64,000 nt of DNA, from the NCBI RefSeq assembly GCF_009914755.1, contig NC_060925.1. One strand, given 5' to 3'. The notes below the pieces were generated by a model that saw only the letters and a program-made list of their open reading frames with translations, ran no database searches and had not been told where the DNA came from. The DNA is from the human T2T-CHM13v2.0 reference genome, Homo sapiens. Each line of letters begins with the position of its first letter. Positions within the stretch are counted from its first letter, which is position 1. Position numbers and translations under genes: made by a program. Positions 31,550 to 61,061 of the stretch are shown one piece after another.

Positions 31550-31845
31550 GAATGGGTCGGTTGGGTGGGCGGACCAAATTCCTTTAAGAAGCGTTCAAGG
31601 CCTGAAGTGGCTGTCCGTGAGGCTGCCTTGGTTGGGGCATGGTGAGGGTGGGTGGCAGCCTGGGGCAGGGCTGCGAGGGCGGCGCAGGGCGGGACGGGTG
31701 GGGCCTGACCCCGCCCCTTGGCGCAGCTGTAAATAGGTAAATAGAAGGTGATTGTGGCGTGGCGATGTACCGATACCCGCCTGCGACGCCGTGGTGGCTG
31801 GTTCCCTGTCTCTTCAGTAGAGAGTCTAGACCCCACCCAGTCTTC
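31550..31845 (+). promoter_or_regulatory. KLF17: KLF17 promoter / CpG-rich 5' region
   Basis: GC/KLF boxes (gggcggg 31687, gggtggggc 31696, ccccgcccc 31709), E-box cagctg, and tandem GTAAATA (31729-35, 31737-43) at a TATA-like position. CpG-rich to ~32000. Confidence 0.75.
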
Positions 31846-31926
31846 ATGTACGGCCGACCGCAGGCTGAGATGGAACAGGAGGCTGGGGAGCTGAGCCGGT
31901 GGCAGGCGGCGCACCAGGCTGCCCAG
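31846..31926 (+). CDS. KLF17: KLF17 coding exon 1 (MYGRPQAEMEQEAGELSRWQAAHQAAQ)
   Basis: Recognised KLF17 N-terminus; donor cag|gtgagt, phase 0. Confidence 0.95.
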
Positions 31927-32047
31927 GTGAGTCAGGTGCCAGCCCCTGGCAGGCCGGGCGGGCCCAGGCTAGGGGGCGGCGGGGAGGGGAGGCCTTGGAG
32001 GAGAGGTGAGGCGGAGGGAAGCAGAAACCCGAGGGGTAGAAATCCGA

Positions 32048-32180
32048 GGGGAGGGGTGGCAAAGGAAGGAATGGGAGATTGGGGAGGGGTTGCAAAGGGA
32101 GGGATGGGAGATTGGGGAGGGGTTGCAAAGGGAGGGATGGGAGACTGGGGAGGGATTGGAAAGGGAGGGTTGTGAGATTG
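32048..32180 (+). repeat. G-rich 33-bp tandem repeat, ~4 copies
   Basis: Unit ggggaggggttgcaaagggagggatgggagatt; the ORF track shows GGVAKGGMGDW-type repeats. Confidence 0.9.
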
Positions 32181-34031
32181 AGGGTGTAAATCATACGTCG
32201 TTTATTCCAACAATGTTCGCCCAGCAGTAGAGCTTGTGTTGGCCGCGTGGCGGGTAAGAGGGTTCTAGGCAACTTTCTGGTGAGGGACTTGAGTAGGCAG
32301 GACAGCAAAGACCAAGTTAGGAAGTGAGCAGGAAACAACAGGAAAAAAAAAAAAAAACCCCAAAAATGTTAATTGGAGCCCTACTAAGTGGTAGGCTTTT
32401 CCCAGACCCTGGAAATACAATGATGAATTTACCATGAAACAGATATATATAAAATTGTATGAATAAATCGTTAACTGAATGATTGGAATTGTACAGCGTT
32501 ACATGAAGAAGAAGTCAGGGGCGCGTGGGAGCAGATACCAGAGGTGTTTGACCCGATTTGGGAGGCTTAGGAGACAGCTGAGACTCTGTTCTGGGACTAA
32601 AGAACCCGTCAGGTGAAAGGTTCCCAGGTCTGAGACCACAGGCTGCATGCTTCCTCTTAGGAGGAACTGAAAGACCAGGGCCTAGACAGTGATGGAAGGG
32701 TGGCCCCAGGGACACCATTGAGATCATTCAGGGCTTGTTTATTCCAAGAACAGTGGGAAGCCATTGATGAGTTTAAACATAATCTGTCTCAATTAGATTT
32801 GCATTTTCAAAGGAGTGCCCTGGTGGATGTGGGCTGGATTCAAGGCAACAGTTAGAAAGCTTTTGTGATAATCCAGGTGAGAATTCAAATGGCGGCCTAC
32901 CTGCAGAAGTGAGAGTGGAGATGGAGAAGCTAAATATATCATAGATTGTGGAGATGTTTTGGAGGCAGAGACCACAATCATTGGTCCCCGGGTGGTGAGG
33001 GAGACATCTAGAGTAACAGATTTCTTGCTTGCACAATTGGGTGACAATAGTGACATTTTCTGAGAGAGAGTGAAGGATGAGATGGACAAGATTAATTTGT
33101 TGTTTGAGGGAGGTGGGCAAAGATGCTAGTGAATTTTGGCCATAGTCCATTAGAAGAGCATGTGGGCCATCCGAAAGGACTCAAACAATAGGTAGCTGGA
33201 AAATTCAGGAGCCATCTTCGCCAGAGCGAAGATTCCAGATTTAGGAATAGTTGGACTGTAAACAGAAACAAAACCACTGGCATGGGGAAGCTTGCCCAGA
33301 GAGAGCAGGGAAAGGGAAATCTGCAAAAGAAACTGTGAAGGAGGGGGTCTGAGAGAAGGGAAGGAGAAAAACTTGGAAAGTGTGGCCATGCGTGTTAGAG
33401 AGGCCAAGCATTCTAAGAAGGGTGTGGCCAGTGGTCGTATAAGCTCCTGAGAGTTCAAGCGAGGAGTCTGGAAAGTGCTGCTTGGTCATAGTGGGATGGA
33501 AGTCATCAGTGGTGACCTTTATGAAAGCTGGTTCTGTGGAGAGATAGAGGCCAGAGCAAATTTGGGAGACTCATAAGGCAAAGTAGTGGTGAAGGCATGT
33601 TTAGACAACTTAATTTGCCATGAAGGACTGGGAAAACAAGAGGGCCATTGCTGAGAGTTAGGGAGGAGAGGCTGAGCACCCCAGAGGTGCCCACCCAATA
33701 GTCATTTACCTAGTTCCTATTATATGTCTGTCTTATGCTAGTTGCTGAGCATATAGTGGTAAATAAAACAGATAAGGCTGGGCATGGTGGCTCACACCTG
33801 TAGTCCCAGCAGCCCAGGAGGCTGAAGCAGAAGGCTCGTTTGAGCTCAGGAGTTTTAGGCTGTGGTCCACAACGATCACACCTGGGCATAGCCACTGCAC
33901 TTCAGCCTGGGCAACATAGTGAGATCCTGTCTCTAAAATTAATTAAATAAAAAATAAAACAAGATCTTCCCAACTCTTCTAGAGTTTTTTTTAAAAAATG
34001 AACATTTTTCTCTATAGCCAAAACCACATAA

Positions 34032-34229
<198 letters not shown>

Positions 34230-34956
34230 TAATTTTAGTAGCGGGATTTTGCTATGTTTGTCAGGCTGGTCTCAATCTTCTGCCCTCAAATGATCTACCC
34301 GCCTCAGCCTCCCAAAGAGGTGGGATTACAGGCATGAGCCGCCACGCCCAGCCGATAATTCCTTTAAATTATCTTAGATGCAAGCCTTATTCAAATGCTC
34401 CTAGCTATTCCTAAAATGTACTTCGTAGCTGGTACGTCCAAACCAGAATTTAAGACCATACACTGTATCTGGTGATTATGTCCCTTGAGTCTCTGAAATT
34501 AGAATAGTTTTATTTTTTCATGATTGGGATTCAGTTTTTCATGATGCTAACTTTTGTCTTATAGAATGTTCCTTTCCGATATATCAGATTGCTTCCTCAT
34601 GATAACATTTAGCTTTATCTTCTATCACTTGTATTACCTTTAAGTTATGATTAGATCTTACAGCTTAACTGGATTCAAGATTTTTGGCAAGAATGCCTCA
34701 TGTGTATGGTAGGTTTCATCTTGCATTACATCAGGAGACACATCTGGCTACCATTTGGTGATACTTGTATTAAGGTAGTGAAAAGCCTCATTGATCTCTC
34801 TGTAGAAATTTACCTTGTGGTCAGAAAGTAATCTGTGTGATTCTGCCTTTTGTGTATCCAGTGTCCAGTTCCCTACCAGCCATTCACCTACTGGTTTTAA
34901 CACCAAATTTAAATTTTTCCTCAATTAAATTTCCTTAGGGATGGCAAAATAAATTT

Positions 34957-35836
<880 letters not shown>

Positions 35837-36274
35837 AGCAAAATAAATTTTCTAATTCCACCATTCATTCTACATTTATTAGTTTGTATTCTTCTGTAAA
35901 GTAGGAAGTAATATTTAACTGCAATTATTTGGTAATTTTGAATTTTTTTTTCTTTTAGAGGCAGAATAAATGCTTAATTTATTCACTTCTATTAGCAATC
36001 TTCAAAGTTAGGATAAGAGCTGAGCTTTTGTCACGTGAGGCTGCAGTGAGCCATGATCATACCACTGTATTCCAGCCCAAAATGAACCATGATTGATCGC
36101 ACCATTCACATCTCAGCCTCTGGAGTAGCTGGGACTACAGACACTTGCCACTATACCTGGCAATTTTTAGGGTTTTTTTGTAGAAATGGGGGGTCTCACC
36201 ATGTTGCCCTGGCTGGTCTCGAACTCCTGGCCTCAAGCGATCCACCTGCTTCGTAGTCTCAAAATGCTCAGCCT

Positions 36275-39550
<3,276 letters not shown>

Positions 39551-40029
39551 TTCCTGTCTCCTTTTGACCCAGTCCTAATCTTTGAAAGCTCCCTTATTTT
39601 CTGGCACGAAATGTACCAGTCTCCCTTAAACCTTCCTTTTCCCAGTCTTGGAGTCAGGAAATTCTTGGTCTAACTTTTAGCAAGGAATAGAATTAGAGAC
39701 AAGTCTAGGCTCTAGAGGCACACGTTGTTATTAGAGTCACAAATGCTTCGATAGGCTATTTTACTGGACAGAGCTAGAAAAAATATATATATTTTTTACC
39801 TTGTGAATTAGTATAGAATATTTCCTATTTAAATTTAGCATTATTATTATTTATTTTGAGATGGGGTCTCACTCTGTCACCCAGGCTGGACAGCAGTGAT
39901 GCGATCACAGCTCGCTGCAGCTTCGACTTCCCAGGCTCAAGTGATCCTTTCCACTTCAGCCTCCTGAGTGGCTGGGACCACAGGCGCATGCTACCATGCC
40001 TGGCTTGTTTTTTTTTTTTTTTTTTTTAA

Positions 40030-40149
<120 letters not shown>

Positions 40150-40447
40150 TAGCAATACTAACTTATTTTAAACCATATTGCTAAAAATGACATTCAAACA
40201 GAAAAGTGAATGTAAGTACAGCTTCTACAAAGTAATGAACTGTTTGTTACAAAGTAAAACCTGTGAAACTGTCACTCAGGTCAAGAAATAGAAGCCCGTC
40301 CAGTGTCCCTTTCTTATCTTTCCCCATTCCCTACTCTCTAATATAACCCCATCCTGTTGTCTGGATGTAACTTTTTTGAATTTCCCTATTTCTGACCTGT
40401 GATGTTCCTATAACTGCTGCAAAATTTGTAATTGCTTCAAGTTTTTA

Positions 40448-40610
40448 CTTCCTTCCTTCCTTCCCTCCCTCCCTCCTTCCCTCCTTCCTTCCTTCCTTCC
40501 TTGAACTCCTGACCTCAAGTGATCCACCCGCCTCGGTGGATCTTTCCCTTTCTTTCTTTCTTTTCTTTTCTTTTCTTTTCTTTTCTTTTCTTTCTTTCTT
40601 TCTTTCTTTT

Positions 40611-40667
<57 letters not shown>

Positions 40668-40762
40668 TCTTTTCTTTCTTTCTTCTCTTTTCTTTCTTCT
40701 CTTTTCTTTCTTTCTTCTCTTCTTTCTTTCTTCTCTTTTCTTTCTTTTCTTATCTTTTCTTT
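40448..40762. repeat. (CCTT)n / (TTTTC)n / (TTTC)n polypyrimidine microsatellite with a 36-bp Alu scrap
   Basis: Directly visible. Confidence 0.95.
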
Positions 40763-41052
40763 CTTGTGTTTGATTGTTGTTACGTTTTCCCTTGATTTGT
40801 AGCAACAATTTTCGGGTGACTTTTTTTTTTAATTGCAATCTTCAATTTCTGTCTTGGTGGTTTATTATCTTGTATGGATATTGTATTTTAAACTTCTCTT
40901 TTGGTTGTCATATTTGAATGGATTGTTCTTTTCTGGACCATCCCAATTGAAGAGTGAATAGGAGATGATAGGATAGCTTTATTCGTTTCTCAACTCAAGA
41001 GCTCCCTCTTCTATTGCTACAGTAATGGACTTTTTTGTTGCTGTTGTCTTGA

Positions 41053-41193
<141 letters not shown>

Positions 41194-41857
41194 TAGCTGA
41201 TTTTGTTTTTCTTTTTGAAATTTCTGAGCTCAAGCAATCCACCTGCCTCGGCCTCCCAAAGTGCTGGGATTACCTAGTTGTGAGCCGCTGCGCCTGGACT
41301 ACTGACAGCTTTTAAAAATATGGTTCTTGGCTTCTATCCTATTTTAAGACCTTCTACCACCAATCTCTTTCTTACCCTTCATGCAAGTCAGTCATTAAGG
41401 AAACTGCCCCTGACTTCCAGACAACCCCCATCCCTTTTTTTAAGAAGTGTTTTTTTCACATCTGCCTTTTCCCCATCTCTCCTCCAGTGCTTGATCTCAG
41501 ACCTGCCCAGGCAGTTCCCACTCAGGGCAGACGCTGTAAATATTTGCAGATGATGTCTAAGTTTTGCCAAAGCCGAGACCCATCTGCAGCCTCAATTCCT
41601 TTCATCTCTGTGGCTTTCTGCACCCGTTCTGCTGGTTTGGGATGTTCTTTCACTTTCACACTTATGTATAATTTGGAGTTTGGGCCAGGCGCGGTGGCTC
41701 ACGCCTGTAATCCCAGCACTTTGGGAGGCCAAGGTGGGCAGATCACCTGAGGTCAGGAGCTCAAGACCAGCTTGACCAACATGGAGAAACCCCGTCTCTA
41801 CTAAAAATACAAAATTAGCTGGGCATGGTGGTGCATGCCTGTAATCCCAGCTACTCA

Positions 41858-41962
<105 letters not shown>

Positions 41963-42304
41963 TCAATAAAAAGAAAAAAAAAAACTGGAGTTTGAACATT
42001 TTCTCAGTTTTGCTGAAGGTGTAGGTTATGGACTGTTTTATTTGCTCTCTTTGTTGCTTTGTGTGAAATAAAAACCAAAAACATGTCCAAGGGAAGGTGG
42101 CATGAGTTACATTTAGGCTTCCGTGGGGCTTGTATCAGCCAGACCGCATGTTAGAAAGCCCAAGCTGGGAAATGGTCTGGAGGCAGGATAATTCAAGCAA
42201 GAGATGGAAATAGAGGGCTGGATTAGGATGGGGTCTGGGGATGAAGAGGAGGAACATGTGGAACTGGAATTTGAGCAAAAATCACCTGACTCTTTTTCCC
42301 CAAG

Positions 42305-51619: not shown

Positions 51620-54586
<2,967 letters not shown>

Positions 54587-55203
54587 TCATCCCAGCTCAA
54601 ATTCCAATCCCCACATACCCTCCTTCTCCGTCCCTGTTGACCCTATCCTAATCCAGCCCACCATCATCTCTTGCCTAGAAGCCTGTAGTTGCCTTTCAAC
54701 TGACTCTGGAGTTAACTTCATCCAGTGTCCCCTCCACACACAGAGTAACATTTTAAAAGTGCAAACATTTCTCAAGTGCAAACTTTTACTAAGCTACTCC
54801 TATCTACCAATGGAGATGAGAGTCTAGATGGATGTTGTGAATCTCCTATCATCCTCTGAAGAGATCTCACCCCAGAGGCTTTTCCAAAGTCTCCTCTCCA
54901 GACATCTTACCGGAGATTCAGCTGATTAAATTTTCAAATAAATTATCTCATTTCATTTCCACCATGACCCCAGAAAATAAGGGTCATAATTAATCCCATT
55001 TTAAGGAAAATAGAAGTCCAGGGAGGTAAATTGACTTGGCCCAGGTGGAAGACTCTTAATTTGTACTGGACCTATCTGGCTGTGGGTCCTTACAGTCCCC
55101 TAGATAAATGGGATATTTCTCCCAGAGATCTCACTGGGGGCACCCACTGATTCTAGCCTCCTGAGAACCATCCTGGAAACCACCAGCTTCTAGGAACCAT
55201 TCT

Positions 55204-55475
55204 ACTATGGACTGAATGTTTGTGTTTCTCCAAATTTCATATGCTAAAACTGAATTTCCAGTGTGATTGTATTAGAAGGTAGCGCCTTTGGGAGATGATT
55301 AGGTCATGGAGACAGAACCTTCAAGAATGAGATGAGTGTTCTTCTAAGGGGCTGAGGGTCAGAGTTCTTTACTTCTACCAAGTGAGGACACAGCTAAAAG
55401 GTGCCATCTATGAATCAGAAAGTATGCCCTTACCAGACACCGAATCTACCAGCTCCTGGACAGAACAGACTAAGA
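55204..55475 (+). mobile_element. MaLR LTR (MLT1A/MST-like) in KLF18 intron 1
   Basis: tactatggactgaatgtttgtgtttctccaaatttcatatgct..gcctttgggagatgattaggtcatg..aggacacagc..gccatctatgaatcagaaag..cagacaccgaatct. Confidence 0.8.
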
Positions 55476-56479
55476 TACATTCCAAGAAGCAGTTTCTTTG
55501 GAGACAGAGGCGTAACTGTGCATATGGACAAGGTTTATATTTCTGTTCAAAGTGGCCATCCATATGCTTCTAGGCTTCCTTTGTCTCTGGTATCAAGTGT
55601 ATGTATGTATGTATGTATGTACTTATTTATTTATTTATTTATTATTTTCTCTTTTTTCTCTGCCCCATATGATCTGCAAGAAAAGTGTCAAGTTTATAAT
55701 GAGCTCCCCAAAGCCACCATCTGGGTAGCCTCACATCTTTTTCATCCCCTGTGCCTCTTCCCTGCTTTTGTCCTACTCTAGCCAGATCAGTCTACTCAGT
55801 TTTGCCATGTTCCTATCCAATCCATTGCTCAGTCTGCCTTATCCAGCCAAATTATCTTATCTAATACGTTCTCCTTTCCCATCTCTGCCATCAAAGTCTG
55901 GTCCCTCCTGCCTTGTCCTGACTCTCAGAATAGAGAAATACCATAATTCCCCCAGGCTGTATTCAAAATGTGTGACAGGACTGCCATTGAATATGGTGGA
56001 CTGAGGAGACCCTGAAGTCCTTCCCTTCTATACCAAATCATAGAAATGATAGATGGCTTTAAATATATAGAAATATATATATATATATAATATATGTACA
56101 TATATTACATATATTTAAAGAAAAATTTTAAAACCCAAAGAATATACATATATAACATATATCTATTTATGATTGGAAATAAGTGGAATTTCCCAAGAAC
56201 TAGAAGGAGGTACCCTTAAAAGAAGGGAGATAATTGAAGCCACAGTGGAAGCAGAAGCCACTTTCACTTGGAGGTCTGGGCTGATGCCACTTCTTGTGGT
56301 GACACCCTACCAAGAGGAGCTCTCAAAACCTAGGAATTCTTTTTATTTTTATTTTCAGAGATGGATTCTCTCCAAGTTACCCCGGCTGGATTTGAACTAC
56401 TGGGCTCAAGCGATCTTCCTGTCTCAGACTCCCTAGTACGTGGGACTACAGGTGCTTGCCACCACATCCACCTCTAAAT

Positions 56480-58575
<2,096 letters not shown>

Positions 58576-59081
58576 TTCAAAAAAAAAATTCCAAACAGGA
58601 AATCTTTGAAATGATGTCCTCTGAGATTAAAATCAATCTCTAGCTATCACAGCACCTCTAGCTCTAGGTACTCAGAGGCTGTGGGACGAGGTTCCCTTGA
58701 GCCCAGCAGTTTGAAGCCAGCTTGGGCAACATAGCAAGAACCCCCTCCTCTCTAAAAAATAAATACATAAAATTAAACTTTAAAAATCAATCTCTAATAG
58801 CATCTTACTCTTACACTTAGTTTCCCACCATTTCTACTCATGTAAAAGCTTAACTCCTGTCTACCCCCTCTCCCCACCACTGGACTAGAAGCTCCTCTGA
58901 GCAGACAGAACTCTATTTCGTTCTGAGCAAGGCCTGATGGATCCCACTGGGAACCTTAGAAAACAGGAACCCAGTGAGGGACTGATTCCCACTCCACCTG
59001 CTCTAGGTCTGCTTCTGGTCCCTAAAGTTTCTGGCCCTTGGAAAAACAGAAGGATTTCAACCCCAGTTTAAGGAATTATTA

Positions 59082-59465
<384 letters not shown>

Positions 59466-59895
59466 CTATGCCTCCTTCTCTTGATCTCTAATAATTCAAC
59501 CCAACCCACCCAGGCCCCTCTGACTCATGGGCCTAGCGTTCCTTGTATACTTCCATGAGACTTCGACCAGACCACGATCTCGTCCTGGGCTCCTGCCAAC
59601 ATGATAGAAAGACCTTCGGGTGCCATCGAGAGACCCCCAGGATCACAACCACAGCCTTCTCTGCAGGCCCCGCGTCTGTCTGATGAAAGGGTCTGTCTGA
59701 TGAAAGGCATGCCCTGCGGAGGGCAGGCTCGTGGAAGTAAAAATGGTCCTCAATAAATGAACCGTTTCAGACACTTCTCTGTCCTCCCCTATTAGCGGGC
59801 TCCCTTGCTAGGATTCTGGACGCCTACATCTTTGAATTTCTGACCTACCACTCCATGACACCGACCTTCGCCCTTTCATTTGGAGATAGACTTAC

Positions 59896-59910
59896 CAGAA
59901 ATTGATCCAT
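59896..59910 (-). CDS. KLF18: Predicted KLF18 first coding micro-exon (MDQFL)
   Basis: gccatATGGATCAATTTCTG|gtaagt has a consensus donor in phase 0, in frame with the acceptor at 54559. It is the first ATG downstream of the TATA box. Confidence 0.7.
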
Positions 59911-59959
59911 ATGGCAGGCCGGGCACTTTGCTACTTGCAGACGGAGAGGAACACACTCT

Positions 59960-60190
59960 GAAACTTCTGGGCGCCTTCTGGGGCCTGGGCTTTTATACAG
60001 CCTGGCTCGGATGCACCCAGGTCACTGCTTTGCGTCTTTGGTCGGCCACACCCCTCGGGGCGGAGCCCCAGCGACCTACCTACCGCCTGTATAGGCAGAG
60101 TGATTGAGTTACCTACCAGAGGCCTCTGGACATTAATGCAATCACTTCCCCTGTTCTCATTGTGCAGGGAAGCAATTGGCATTAATTAGC
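59960..60190 (-). promoter_or_regulatory. KLF18: Predicted KLF18 promoter: TATA box, KLF and GC boxes, DUX4-type motifs
   Basis: TATAAAA 59997-59991(-); GGCCACACCC 60044-53; GGGGCGGAGC 60057-66; TAACTCAATCA 60111-60101(-); TAATGCAATCA 60134-44(+). CpGs are retained locally. Confidence 0.75.
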
Positions 60191-61061
60191 GAATTTTACC
60201 CTCACCAGTATTAGGAGGTGGATTTTATCATTGTTATCATGTAAAGCGAAAACTGAGACTCAGAGATATTAAGTATTTGCAGGTCACAGAATCAAACACT
60301 GATAGTAGATTTGAACTCAAACGGTTTTGCTCTTATGATCTGAGTCCTTAAACACACTAGAGGCATCAGATTCAATCAGCTGTTCACTTATGCAGACTCC
60401 ACCTCTTTGGCAGCTGTAAACTTAATCAAATTACTTCTACTGTGAAATCCTGATAATTCCATCAGTTTACCCTGGAAACTTAATGGCTTTTTTTTTCTGT
60501 GGTTTTGACTTATTTACTTATTTATTATTTATTTATTTATTTTATCTTGCATAATTATCTTGATAATTCCATCAGGTTACCCTAGAAATGATCGTGGTAC
60601 TTTTTTCTCTTTCTTTCTTCCTTCTTTCCTTTTTTCCTTCCTTCCTTCCTTCCTCTTTCTTTCTTTTTCTTTCTCTCTCTCTTTCTTTTTGGCTGTGGTT
60701 TTTACTTACTATTTTTAATTTTTTTGCCACCTATTTATTTTTGAGACAGCGTCTTACTCTGTTCCTCAAGCTGGAGTGTAGTGGTGCAATCATGGCTCAC
60801 TGTGGCTAATTTTTAAATTCTTTGTAGAGACGGAGTCTCATCATGTTGCCCAGGCTGCTTTCAAACTCCTGGACTCGAGCGGTCCTCCCACCTCAGCCTC
60901 CTAAAGTGCAAAGATTACAGGCATGAGCCACCATGCCCGGCCTTCATTTTGAATGTAAAAAAAAAAAAAACCAGATAATTTCATTTTACATACATAGCAC
61001 GTTCATCCACTCATTGTTGATAAAATTTTAGAAATATTTGCTATACAAATTTAGTATTTGA

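What the first reader, a model, noticed from the sequence alone, without database searches (positions are those of the whole stretch)
59896..60190. Hidden first exon and TATA promoter of KLF18, 5.3 kb upstream of the repeat exon
Seen on the - strand: TATAAAA (59997-91), a plausible start ~29 nt downstream (~59968), a ~58-nt ATG-free leader, then ATG GAT CAA TTT CTG and a perfect GTAAGT donor. The main KLF18 exon has a good acceptor (T7gcag|GAT at 54559) in the same phase, giving [25 protein letters not shown].. (1046 aa versus 1025 aa from MDSS). This mirrors KLF17: short phase-0 first exon, exon 2 starting with GAT, and a phase-1 intron at TG^E. As I recall, standard KLF18 models have 2 exons and start at MDSS, so the real promoter and a 21-aa extension may be missing from them. 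That last point is inference.
Basis: partly seen in the sequence, partly recalled or inferred. Interest (0 to 1): 0.85.

Follow-up and report, generated by a model that had tools for sequence, protein, structure and literature searches.

The report
KLF18 upstream DUX4-driven promoter and first exon
The stretch is very probably the real, DUX4-switched promoter and tiny first exon of the early-embryo gene KLF18, which current gene models leave out but a 2026 paper has already reported; what remains open is whether it adds 21 amino acids to the protein.

Summary
This includes the TATAAAA box, the 58-nt ATG-free leader, the five-codon ATG exon, the GTAAGT donor, the in-phase acceptor at 54559, and the 1046 versus 1025 aa lengths.

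New support:
- The only two exact DUX4 consensus sites in the window plus 10 kb further upstream lie 105-150 nt upstream of the TATA box.
- The donor ranks 1 of 349 GT sites.
- The acceptor aligns with the KLF17 exon-2 acceptor.
- The 16 residues before the annotated Met are 57% identical across 11 mammalian homologues. Six of the 11 lack that Met.
- A 2013 Genscan model for gibbon has a 15-nt first exon 5,340 nt upstream.

The promoter is already in print. Hamm et al. 2026 report a DUX4 ChIP peak in a MIR upstream of KLF18 and a transcript with unannotated first and second exons.

None of 10 candidate middle exons keeps the frame open. The 21-aa extension is therefore plausible but unproven, and I found it discussed nowhere. 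Interest is modest.

The parts
60130..60330 (-). Old SINE-like (MIR) segment. Its 3' end carries the first DUX4 site. The boundaries are approximate.
   Evidence: Two papers call the DUX4-bound element upstream of KLF18 a MIR. The resemblance to the MIR core is by eye, against a consensus I recalled. It was not testable here: there is no repeat library, and a self-BLAST in the window found no other copy.
60134..60144 (+). DUX4 consensus site TAATGCAATCA
   Evidence: One of only 2 exact matches to TAAYBBAATCA in 64 kb (0.87 expected). The consensus is quoted in PMC4321439.
60101..60111 (-). DUX4 consensus site TAACTCAATCA
   Evidence: There is no further exact match in the next 10 kb upstream (L003).
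60046..60063 (-). GC box (CCGCCC, 60063-60058) and CACCC/KLF-type box (GGGTGTGG, 60053-60046)
   Evidence: Motif scan. The 59900-60100 stretch has GC 0.60 and CpG observed/expected 0.56, against 0.41 and 0.20 in the intron. Function is inferred.
59991..59997 (-). TATA box TATAAAA
   Evidence: It is the only TATAWAW in 59900-60200.
59896..59968 (-). Proposed exon 1. It comprises an inferred TSS near 59968, a 58-nt ATG-free leader, and ATG at 59910-59908 followed by 4 codons (MDQFL).
   Evidence: The ATG context is ccatATGg, with a weak C at -3 and a G at +4. The TSS position is inferred from the TATA spacing.
59890..59895 (-). Splice donor GTAAGT
   Evidence: It has the best donor score of 349 GT sites in 54300-60400 on the - strand (position weights recalled).
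54560..59895 (-). Proposed intron 1 (5,336 nt). It contains antisense Alu and other repeats and may hold the published second unannotated exon.
   Evidence: The gibbon Genscan model has a 5,340-nt intron after a 15-nt first exon.
54512..54559 (-). First 16 codons of the main exon ([16 protein letters not shown]), treated as 5' UTR in current models
   Evidence: Pooled identity is 96 of 168 (57%) in 11 homologues, against 118 of 265 (45%) for the next 29 residues.
54509..54511 (-). Annotated start codon (MDSS), context gagATGg (strong)
   Evidence: and the hub annotation (coding part ends at 54511).
54595..54674 (-). Last ~80-110 nt of the intron, homologous to the 3' end of KLF17 intron 1 (42197-42276)
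   Evidence: 77% identity over 84 columns, E 7e-8. Alignment shown. Single copy in the genome at the sensitivity.

Best explanation
The stretch 59896-60190 (- strand) is the DUX4-responsive core promoter and first exon of KLF18.

The proposed sequence of events is as follows. DUX4 binds two consensus sites (60134-60144 and 60101-60111) at the end of an old MIR element. A TATA box 105 nt downstream, with a GC box and a CACCC box between, sets the start near 59968. The 73-nt first exon carries a 58-nt leader and ATG plus four codons. It is spliced from the GTAAGT donor at 59895 towards the acceptor at 54560/54559, which is the counterpart of the KLF17 exon-2 acceptor.

When exon 1 joins the main exon directly, the first AUG of the mRNA is in frame and gives a 1046-aa protein: MDQFL, then the 16 conserved residues now treated as 5' UTR, then the annotated 1025 aa. 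The first AUG has a weak -3 base and the annotated AUG has a strong context, so both forms may be made.

Shown: the sequence features, the motif rarity, the acceptor paralogy and the protein-level conservation. Taken from print: DUX4 binding and an upstream DUX4-induced start. Inferred: the exact TSS, the direct splice and use of the upstream AUG.
For: **Sequence features**
- All are present at the stated coordinates, and the frame is open.
- The only 2 exact DUX4-consensus matches in 64 kb (0.87 expected) are 33 nt apart and 105-150 nt upstream of the TATA box. There are 0 matches in the next 10 kb upstream.
- The donor ranks 1 of 349 and the acceptor 5 of 459. This is the only one of 4 upstream ATG-plus-donor candidates with a TATA box.
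- CpG is locally enriched.

**Print**
- Hamm et al. 2026 report a DUX4 ChIP peak in a MIR upstream of KLF18, an alternative upstream TSS and unannotated 5' exons.
- A figure legend in bioRxiv 10.1101/2024.04.18.589901 places a DUX4-bound MIR in the KLF18 promoter region.

**Acceptor**
- The 3' end of KLF17 intron 1 aligns to the sequence before the KLF18 acceptor, with the AG at the same place.
- The hg19 Genscan main exon is 3,016 nt. That equals 2,935 nt in this assembly plus 81 nt, which matches the 27-aa repeat difference between the 1052- and 1025-aa forms. This points to the same acceptor.

**Coding extension**
- 27 homologues were found, and 11 of them cover residues 1-16.
- In those 11, identity is 96 of 168 (57%) for residues 1-16 against 118 of 265 (45%) for residues 17-45. 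Six of the 11 have no Met at the annotated start: A, I, T, V, V, A.
- Two models (P0003, P0020) carry MDPLM directly before the conserved D. That cannot be a read-through of an AG acceptor.
- The gibbon Genscan model has a 15-nt first exon 5,340 nt upstream, and the squirrel monkey model a 36-nt one 5,269 nt upstream. The human intron is 5,336 nt.
Against: - Hamm et al. describe two unannotated upstream exons, not one. I could not see where they lie. If the second lies in 54560-59895, the MDQFL frame is probably broken: 0 of 10 candidate internal exons keep it open.
- The upstream AUG has C at -3, while the annotated AUG has a strong context.
- Five of the 11 homologues keep a Met at the annotated position. 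Five further models start at a Met there: P0006, P0014, P0019, P0021, P0023.
- The similarity of MDQFL to MDPLM is not significant. 165 of 1000 shuffles scored as well for P0003, and 952 of 1000 for P0020.
- There is no DNA homology between this promoter and exon 1 and those of KLF17 (score 18, reached by 170 of 300 shuffles).
- The homologues are unnamed predictions. Some read through the acceptor, and some may be pseudogenes or extra copies.
- The Genscan models are ab initio.
- The MIR identity was not testable here.
Confidence: 0.75

Rival explanations
1. The promoter and first exon are real, but exon 1 is in effect non-coding. The main DUX4-induced transcript carries a further exon between 59896 and 54559 that breaks the frame. 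MDQFL then opens only a short upstream reading frame, and the protein starts at the annotated MDSS (1025 aa).
For: - Hamm et al. report unannotated first and second exons.
- 0 of 10 candidate internal exons keep the frame open. The best-scoring one is 57354-57233, 122 nt.
- The upstream AUG has a weak -3 base and the annotated AUG a strong context.
- Met is kept at the annotated position in 5 of 11 homologues, and 5 models start there.
Against: - The 16 residues before the annotated Met are at least as conserved as those after it, and 6 of 11 homologues lack that Met.
- Two spliced-looking models place a 5-residue MD... peptide directly before the conserved D.
- The gibbon Genscan model joins a 15-nt exon directly.
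- The second published exon may lie upstream of the ATG exon rather than after it.
Confidence: 0.35
2. The published DUX4-bound MIR and upstream start lie somewhere else. The TATA box, ATG and donor at 59896-59997 are a chance constellation that is not transcribed.
For: - I could not read the exon coordinates in Hamm et al., because the supplemental figure is a PDF.
- ATG-plus-donor candidates are common: 22 of 65 donors on the - strand of the window have one, and 4 such candidates lie in the 9.4 kb upstream.
- The MIR identity is untested.
Against: - No other exact DUX4 motif occurs in the window or in the next 10 kb upstream.
- The two motifs sit just upstream of the only TATA-linked candidate and of the best donor in the region.
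- The gibbon 15-nt exon lies at the same distance.
Confidence: 0.1
3. KLF18 is also, or mainly, transcribed from a proximal start just upstream of the main exon, as in the RefSeq model whose 5' end is at 54630. The sequence there that is conserved with KLF17 would be a promoter or enhancer, not merely an intron end.
For: - The hub annotation gives XM_047443665.1 starting at 54630.
- The stretch 54595-54674 is 77% identical to the end of KLF17 intron 1 and is single copy.
- It holds a GGATTA (TAATCC-type homeobox) motif in both genes.
Against: - The XM model is a prediction.
- Hamm et al. show the DUX4-induced transcript starting upstream.
- Nothing in print that I saw shows a start at 54630.
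- The region ends in a good acceptor, ranked 5 of 459.
Confidence: 0.1

Closest known systems
DUX4-induced upstream KLF18 transcript of Hamm et al. 2026 (Genes Dev, PMC13224869; sections 5, 9, 10, 17 and passages read)
   Same: Both have a DUX4 site in a MIR upstream of KLF18, an alternative upstream start, and 5' exons missing from annotation. KLF18 is induced within 4 h of DUX4 induction.
   Different: The paper reports two unannotated exons and uses the GENCODE protein throughout. Its main text has 0 occurrences of 'start codon', 'ATG' or 'in-frame', so the 21-aa extension is not discussed there. The exon coordinates are in a PDF figure I could not read.
Genscan KLF18 models in Table S1 of Pei and Grishin 2013 (PMC3820594; supplement read, part 1 of 2)
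   Same: Gibbon has a 15-nt first exon 5,340 nt upstream of the main exon. Squirrel monkey has a 36-nt first exon 5,269 nt upstream. The human main exon length fits the same acceptor.
   Different: These are ab initio models with no promoter and no expression data. The human model was joined to far-upstream exons 9 and 30 kb away, not to this one.
KLF17 exon 1 and intron 1 (the neighbouring paralogue, 31759-42304 on the + strand)
   Same: Both have a short phase-0 first coding exon, an exon 2 starting with GAT, a homologous acceptor region, a phase-1 intron in zinc finger 1, and a TATA-like box plus GC box before the start.
   Different: There is no detectable sequence homology of promoter or exon 1. 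KLF17 codes 27 residues in exon 1 against 5 here. According to Hamm et al., KLF17 has no adjacent DUX4 peak, and there is no exact DUX4 motif near it.
Current KLF18 gene models (RefSeq XM_047443665.1 on T2T-CHM13; GENCODE 1052-aa model)
   Same: They share the main exon, the zinc-finger exon and the reading frame.
   Different: The models have two exons and start at MDSS. They lack the promoter, exon 1 and the 21 N-terminal residues.

Membership tests
DUX4-driven, repeat-associated alternative promoter | Consensus DUX4 motif (TAAYBBAATCA) close upstream of the start | tested here: met
   Two exact matches 105-150 nt upstream of the TATA box. They are the only 2 in 64 kb, with 0 in the next 10 kb.
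DUX4-driven, repeat-associated alternative promoter | DUX4 occupancy and DUX4-dependent transcripts starting there | not testable with these tools
   Reported in print, but without coordinates that I could read.
DUX4-driven, repeat-associated alternative promoter | The motif lies in a transposable element (MIR) | tested here: inconclusive
   No repeat library is available. A self-BLAST found no other copy in the window, and a genome search found only the region itself. The name comes from the papers and from my recall of the consensus.
TATA-box RNA polymerase II core promoter | TATAWAW about 30 nt upstream of a pyrimidine-purine start | tested here: met
   TATAAAA lies at 59997-59991, and CA at 59969-59968. 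The start itself has not been mapped.
U2-type GT-AG intron | Consensus donor, and an acceptor with a pyrimidine tract | tested here: met
   The donor ranks 1 of 349 and the acceptor 5 of 459, with recalled position weights.
U2-type GT-AG intron | Spliced reads across the junction | not testable with these tools
   No transcript data can be reached. No processed copy of KLF18 exists in the human genome that could act as a fossil of the junction.
KLF17/KLF18 shared gene layout | Homologous exon-2 acceptor and a phase-1 intron in zinc finger 1 | tested here: met
KLF17/KLF18 shared gene layout | Homologous promoter and exon 1 | tested here: not met
   Best local alignment score 18, reached by 170 of 300 shuffles.
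Protein-coding N-terminal extension | Open frame from an upstream AUG, and conservation of the added residues as protein | tested here: met
   A 1046-aa open frame. Identity is 57% over residues 1-16 in 11 homologues, and 6 of the 11 lack the annotated Met.
Protein-coding N-terminal extension | Ribosome initiation or a peptide at the upstream AUG | not testable with these tools
   No Ribo-seq or mass-spectrometry data can be reached.

The most novel reading that the evidence does not exclude
The native KLF18 protein starts in the upstream exon and carries a conserved 21-residue N-terminus: MDQFL, then the D-P/L-T-x-E-D-L-V/I-Q-x-S-G-N segment. This is missing from RefSeq and GENCODE and from every expression construct used so far. 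The published N-terminal tag at the annotated start would then sit inside the protein. The missing segment could matter for activity, partner binding or turnover, and could bear on why the annotated KLF18 alone did not switch on its full programme.
Probability: 0.45. Interest if true: 0.45.

Novelty: already known. Interest (0 to 1): 0.3.

Why it matters
KLF18 has recently been shown to be a necessary early link between DUX4 and part of the human 8-cell/FSHD gene programme (Hamm et al. 2026). Reference gene models still lack its promoter and 5' exon(s).

Fixing the model would let expression studies count the right reads. It would place the two DUX4 sites and the TATA box for reporter and editing work. 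It would also settle which protein is made. If the 21-aa extension is real, the constructs and tags used so far are slightly truncated versions of the native protein.

The gain is an annotation correction and a sharper experiment, not a new kind of biology.

Tried and rejected
- **Word-indexed protein search.** A search with the first 170 residues found nothing: 3950 candidates, none at E <= 0.001. That database seems to hold no mammalian proteins. The exhaustive library did find homologues.
- **Paralogy of promoter and exon 1 with KLF17.** No signal.
- **Collinear matches between the proposed KLF18 intron (57668-56788) and KLF17 intron 1 (36279-36815).** At first these looked like paralogy. 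The segment is in fact a dispersed repeat, with 3178 first-look candidates and 40 scored at 78-83% identity. I rejected it as evidence.
- **Processed KLF18 copy in the human genome.** I looked for one that would preserve the exon junction. None was found; both queries are single copy.
- **MIR identity.** A self-BLAST in the window found nothing.
- **Similarity of the exon-1 peptide to the MDPLM of two homologues.** Not significant.
[quoted passage not shown] Only chance numeric matches came back, so this is uninformative.
- **Zheng et al. 2025 (Sci Adv, DUX4-induced isoforms).** I saw this only as an entry in Hamm's reference list.
- **Unread files.** Hamm et al. Supplemental Fig. S1A and Table S9 (PDFs) and Table S1 (too large) were not readable. 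They may give the exact exons and primers.

Full report
**1. Observation**

Read on the - strand, the window shows the following.
- TATAAAA at 59997-59991.
- A CA dinucleotide at 59969-59968, 29-30 nt downstream.
- No ATG from 59990 to 59911.
- ATG GAT CAA TTT CTG at 59910-59896, then GTAAGT.
- 5,336 nt further on, tttttttgcag|GAT, with the exon starting at 54559.

A script that joined the pieces by coordinate gave a 3141-nt frame of 1046 aa without internal stops, against 1025 aa from the annotated ATG at 54511. There is no other ATG in any frame between the two starts. KLF17 has 81 coding nt in exon 1 (phase 0), its exon 2 begins with GAT, and both genes have a phase-1 intron after ...KHT.

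**2. Chance**

An ATG with an open phase-0 frame ending at a decent donor is common. On the - strand of the window, 22 of 65 donors scoring at least 8 have one, and 4 such candidates lie in the 9.4 kb upstream of the main exon. So the ATG-donor pair alone proves little.

Three things set this candidate apart.
- It alone has a TATA box upstream.
- Its donor is the best of 349 GT sites and the acceptor the 5th of 459 AG sites in 54300-60400. I scored these with position weights recalled from memory, so the ranks are approximate.
- The published DUX4 consensus TAAYBBAATCA (quoted in PMC4321439) has exactly 2 matches in the 64 kb window, where 0.87 are expected. Both are here, at 60134-60144 (+) and 60101-60111 (-), 105-150 nt upstream of the TATA box. 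The next 10 kb upstream has none. With one mismatch allowed, the window has 21 matches against 19.3 expected, so only the exact pair stands out.

Between the DUX4 sites and the TATA box lie a GC box (60063-60058) and a CACCC-type box (60053-60046). The 59900-60100 stretch has GC 0.60 and CpG observed/expected 0.56, against 0.41 and 0.20 in the intron.

**3. What is in print**

A full-text search for KLF18 returned 56 papers. Narrower searches added nothing on transcript structure.

Hamm et al. [quoted passage not shown] The stretch 60130-60330 looks like a MIR to me by eye, but that rests on a recalled consensus. I could not test it.

The existence of an upstream, DUX4-driven promoter and missing 5' exons is therefore already known. 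Hamm et al. use the GENCODE protein (1052 aa; 1025 aa in CHM13) throughout. Their main text has 0 occurrences of 'start codon', 'ATG' or 'in-frame'. The exon coordinates are in a PDF figure that I could not read.

**4. The acceptor**

The last ~80-110 nt before the KLF18 acceptor align with the 3' end of KLF17 intron 1. Identity is 77% over 84 columns with E 7e-8, and the AG falls at the same place. This piece is single copy in the genome at the search's sensitivity. The acceptor is therefore the paralogous counterpart of the KLF17 exon-2 acceptor.

Table S1 of Pei and Grishin 2013 gives the hg19 Genscan main exon as 3,016 nt. The exon in this assembly is 2,935 nt from 54559. The 81-nt difference equals the 27-residue repeat difference between the 1052- and 1025-aa forms. 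My inference is that Genscan used the same acceptor.

**5. The first exon in other species**

In the same table, the gibbon Genscan model has a 15-nt first exon 5,340 nt upstream of the main exon. The squirrel monkey model has a 36-nt first exon 5,269 nt upstream. The human distance is 5,336 nt. These are ab initio models, but they imply that an ATG, an open frame and a donor exist at the same place in two other primates.

**6. The 16 residues before the annotated Met**

An exhaustive search with the first 170 residues of the main exon found 27 unnamed homologues at E <= 0.001.
- 18 of the 27 aligned to the first 45 residues with a score of at least 40.
- 11 of them cover at least 12 of residues 1-16.
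- In those 11, identity is 96 of 168 (57%) for residues 1-16 and 118 of 265 (45%) for residues 17-45.
- At the position of the annotated Met, 5 have Met and 6 have A, I, T, V, V or A. Two partial ones also lack it.
- Two models (P0003, P0020) have ...GHT-MDPLM directly before the conserved D. An M codon cannot be a read-through AG acceptor, so these look spliced to a five-codon MD... exon like the human one.
- Two others (P0009, P0010) start with M directly before the D.
- Four read through the acceptor (LQ|D, FLQ|N, FSQ|D, FFK|D), which shows the acceptor is conserved.

Against this, five models start at a Met aligned with the annotated one. The MDQFL/MDPLM likeness is not significant: 165 of 1000 shuffles did as well for P0003, and 952 of 1000 for P0020. 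The proteins are also unnamed predictions of unknown standing.

**7. What does not fit**

I listed 10 candidate internal exons in 54560-59895 with acceptor score at least 8, donor score at least 7 and length 30-300 nt. The best is 57354-57233 (122 nt), in a repeat-rich stretch. None keeps the MDQFL frame open. If the published second exon is one of these, MDQFL opens only a short upstream frame in that transcript and the annotated AUG is used.

The upstream AUG has C at -3 and G at +4. The annotated AUG has G at -3 and G at +4. Leaky scanning to the second AUG is therefore plausible even in the directly spliced mRNA.

The promoter and exon 1 have no detectable homology to those of KLF17.

**8. 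Dead ends**

- The word-indexed protein database gave nothing.
- The apparent collinearity of the two introns is a dispersed repeat.
- No processed KLF18 copy exists in the human genome.
- No ChIP-peak coordinates near the promoter were found in the supplements (the coordinate offset was recalled, so this is weak).

**9. Verdict**

The sequence observation is right. The site is very probably (about 0.75-0.8) the DUX4-driven KLF18 promoter and first exon that Hamm et al. reported in 2026, so the main claim is already known.

- The exact motif layout: two DUX4 sites, a GC box, a CACCC box, the TATA box, the leader, the ATG and the donor.
- The paralogy of the acceptor with that of KLF17.
- Comparative evidence that the 16 residues before the annotated Met are coding, and that the ancestral start lies in an upstream exon.

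Whether human cells make the 1046-aa form is open; I put it at about 0.45. I found it discussed nowhere in the texts I could search.

Noticed in passing
window 54595-54674 (-) and 42197-42276 (+): The last ~80-110 nt of KLF17 intron 1 and the sequence before the KLF18 acceptor are 77% identical. This is unusually high for intron sequence of paralogues thought to date from early placental mammals. Both keep a GGATTA (TAATCC-type homeobox) motif, at 54654-54649 in KLF18. The 5' end of the RefSeq XM model (54630) lies inside this stretch. It could be a shared regulatory element, an alternative start, or gene conversion.
   Followed up: partly
window 60046-60063 (-): A GC box and a CACCC-type (GGGTGTGG) box lie 50-70 nt upstream of the KLF18 TATA box. 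This is the kind of site KLF/SP factors bind, so KLF18 or KLF17 might feed back on this promoter. A search of the Hamm et al. supplements found no matching ChIP-peak coordinates, but my coordinate conversion was recalled and is weak.
   Followed up: partly
window 57445-57668 (-) and 36279-36503 (+): A dispersed repeat family (3178 first-look candidates in the genome, copies 78-83% identical) lies in the same orientation relative to the gene in both the KLF18 upstream intron and KLF17 intron 1. It mimics paralogy.
   Followed up: yes
window 57233-57354 (-): This is the best-scoring candidate internal exon between the proposed exon 1 and the main exon: acceptor score 13.5, donor score 9.7, 122 nt, frame-shifting. 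It lies in a repeat-rich stretch that matches Alu-like repeats elsewhere in the window. It is a possible identity for the published second unannotated exon.
   Followed up: partly
protein P0003 (unnamed homologue): This homologue carries three tandem copies of the N-terminal segment that begins with the D-x-T-x-E-D...Q-L-S-G-N motif. In some mammal, the region just after the exon-2 acceptor has therefore been triplicated.
   Followed up: no
window 31728-31759 (+): KLF17 has a TATA-like CTGTAAATAG about 28 nt before its annotated start and a CCCCGCCCC box 11 nt upstream of that. The layout resembles the KLF18 promoter (CTGTATAAAAG plus CCGCCCC), although the two do not align significantly.
   Followed up: partly
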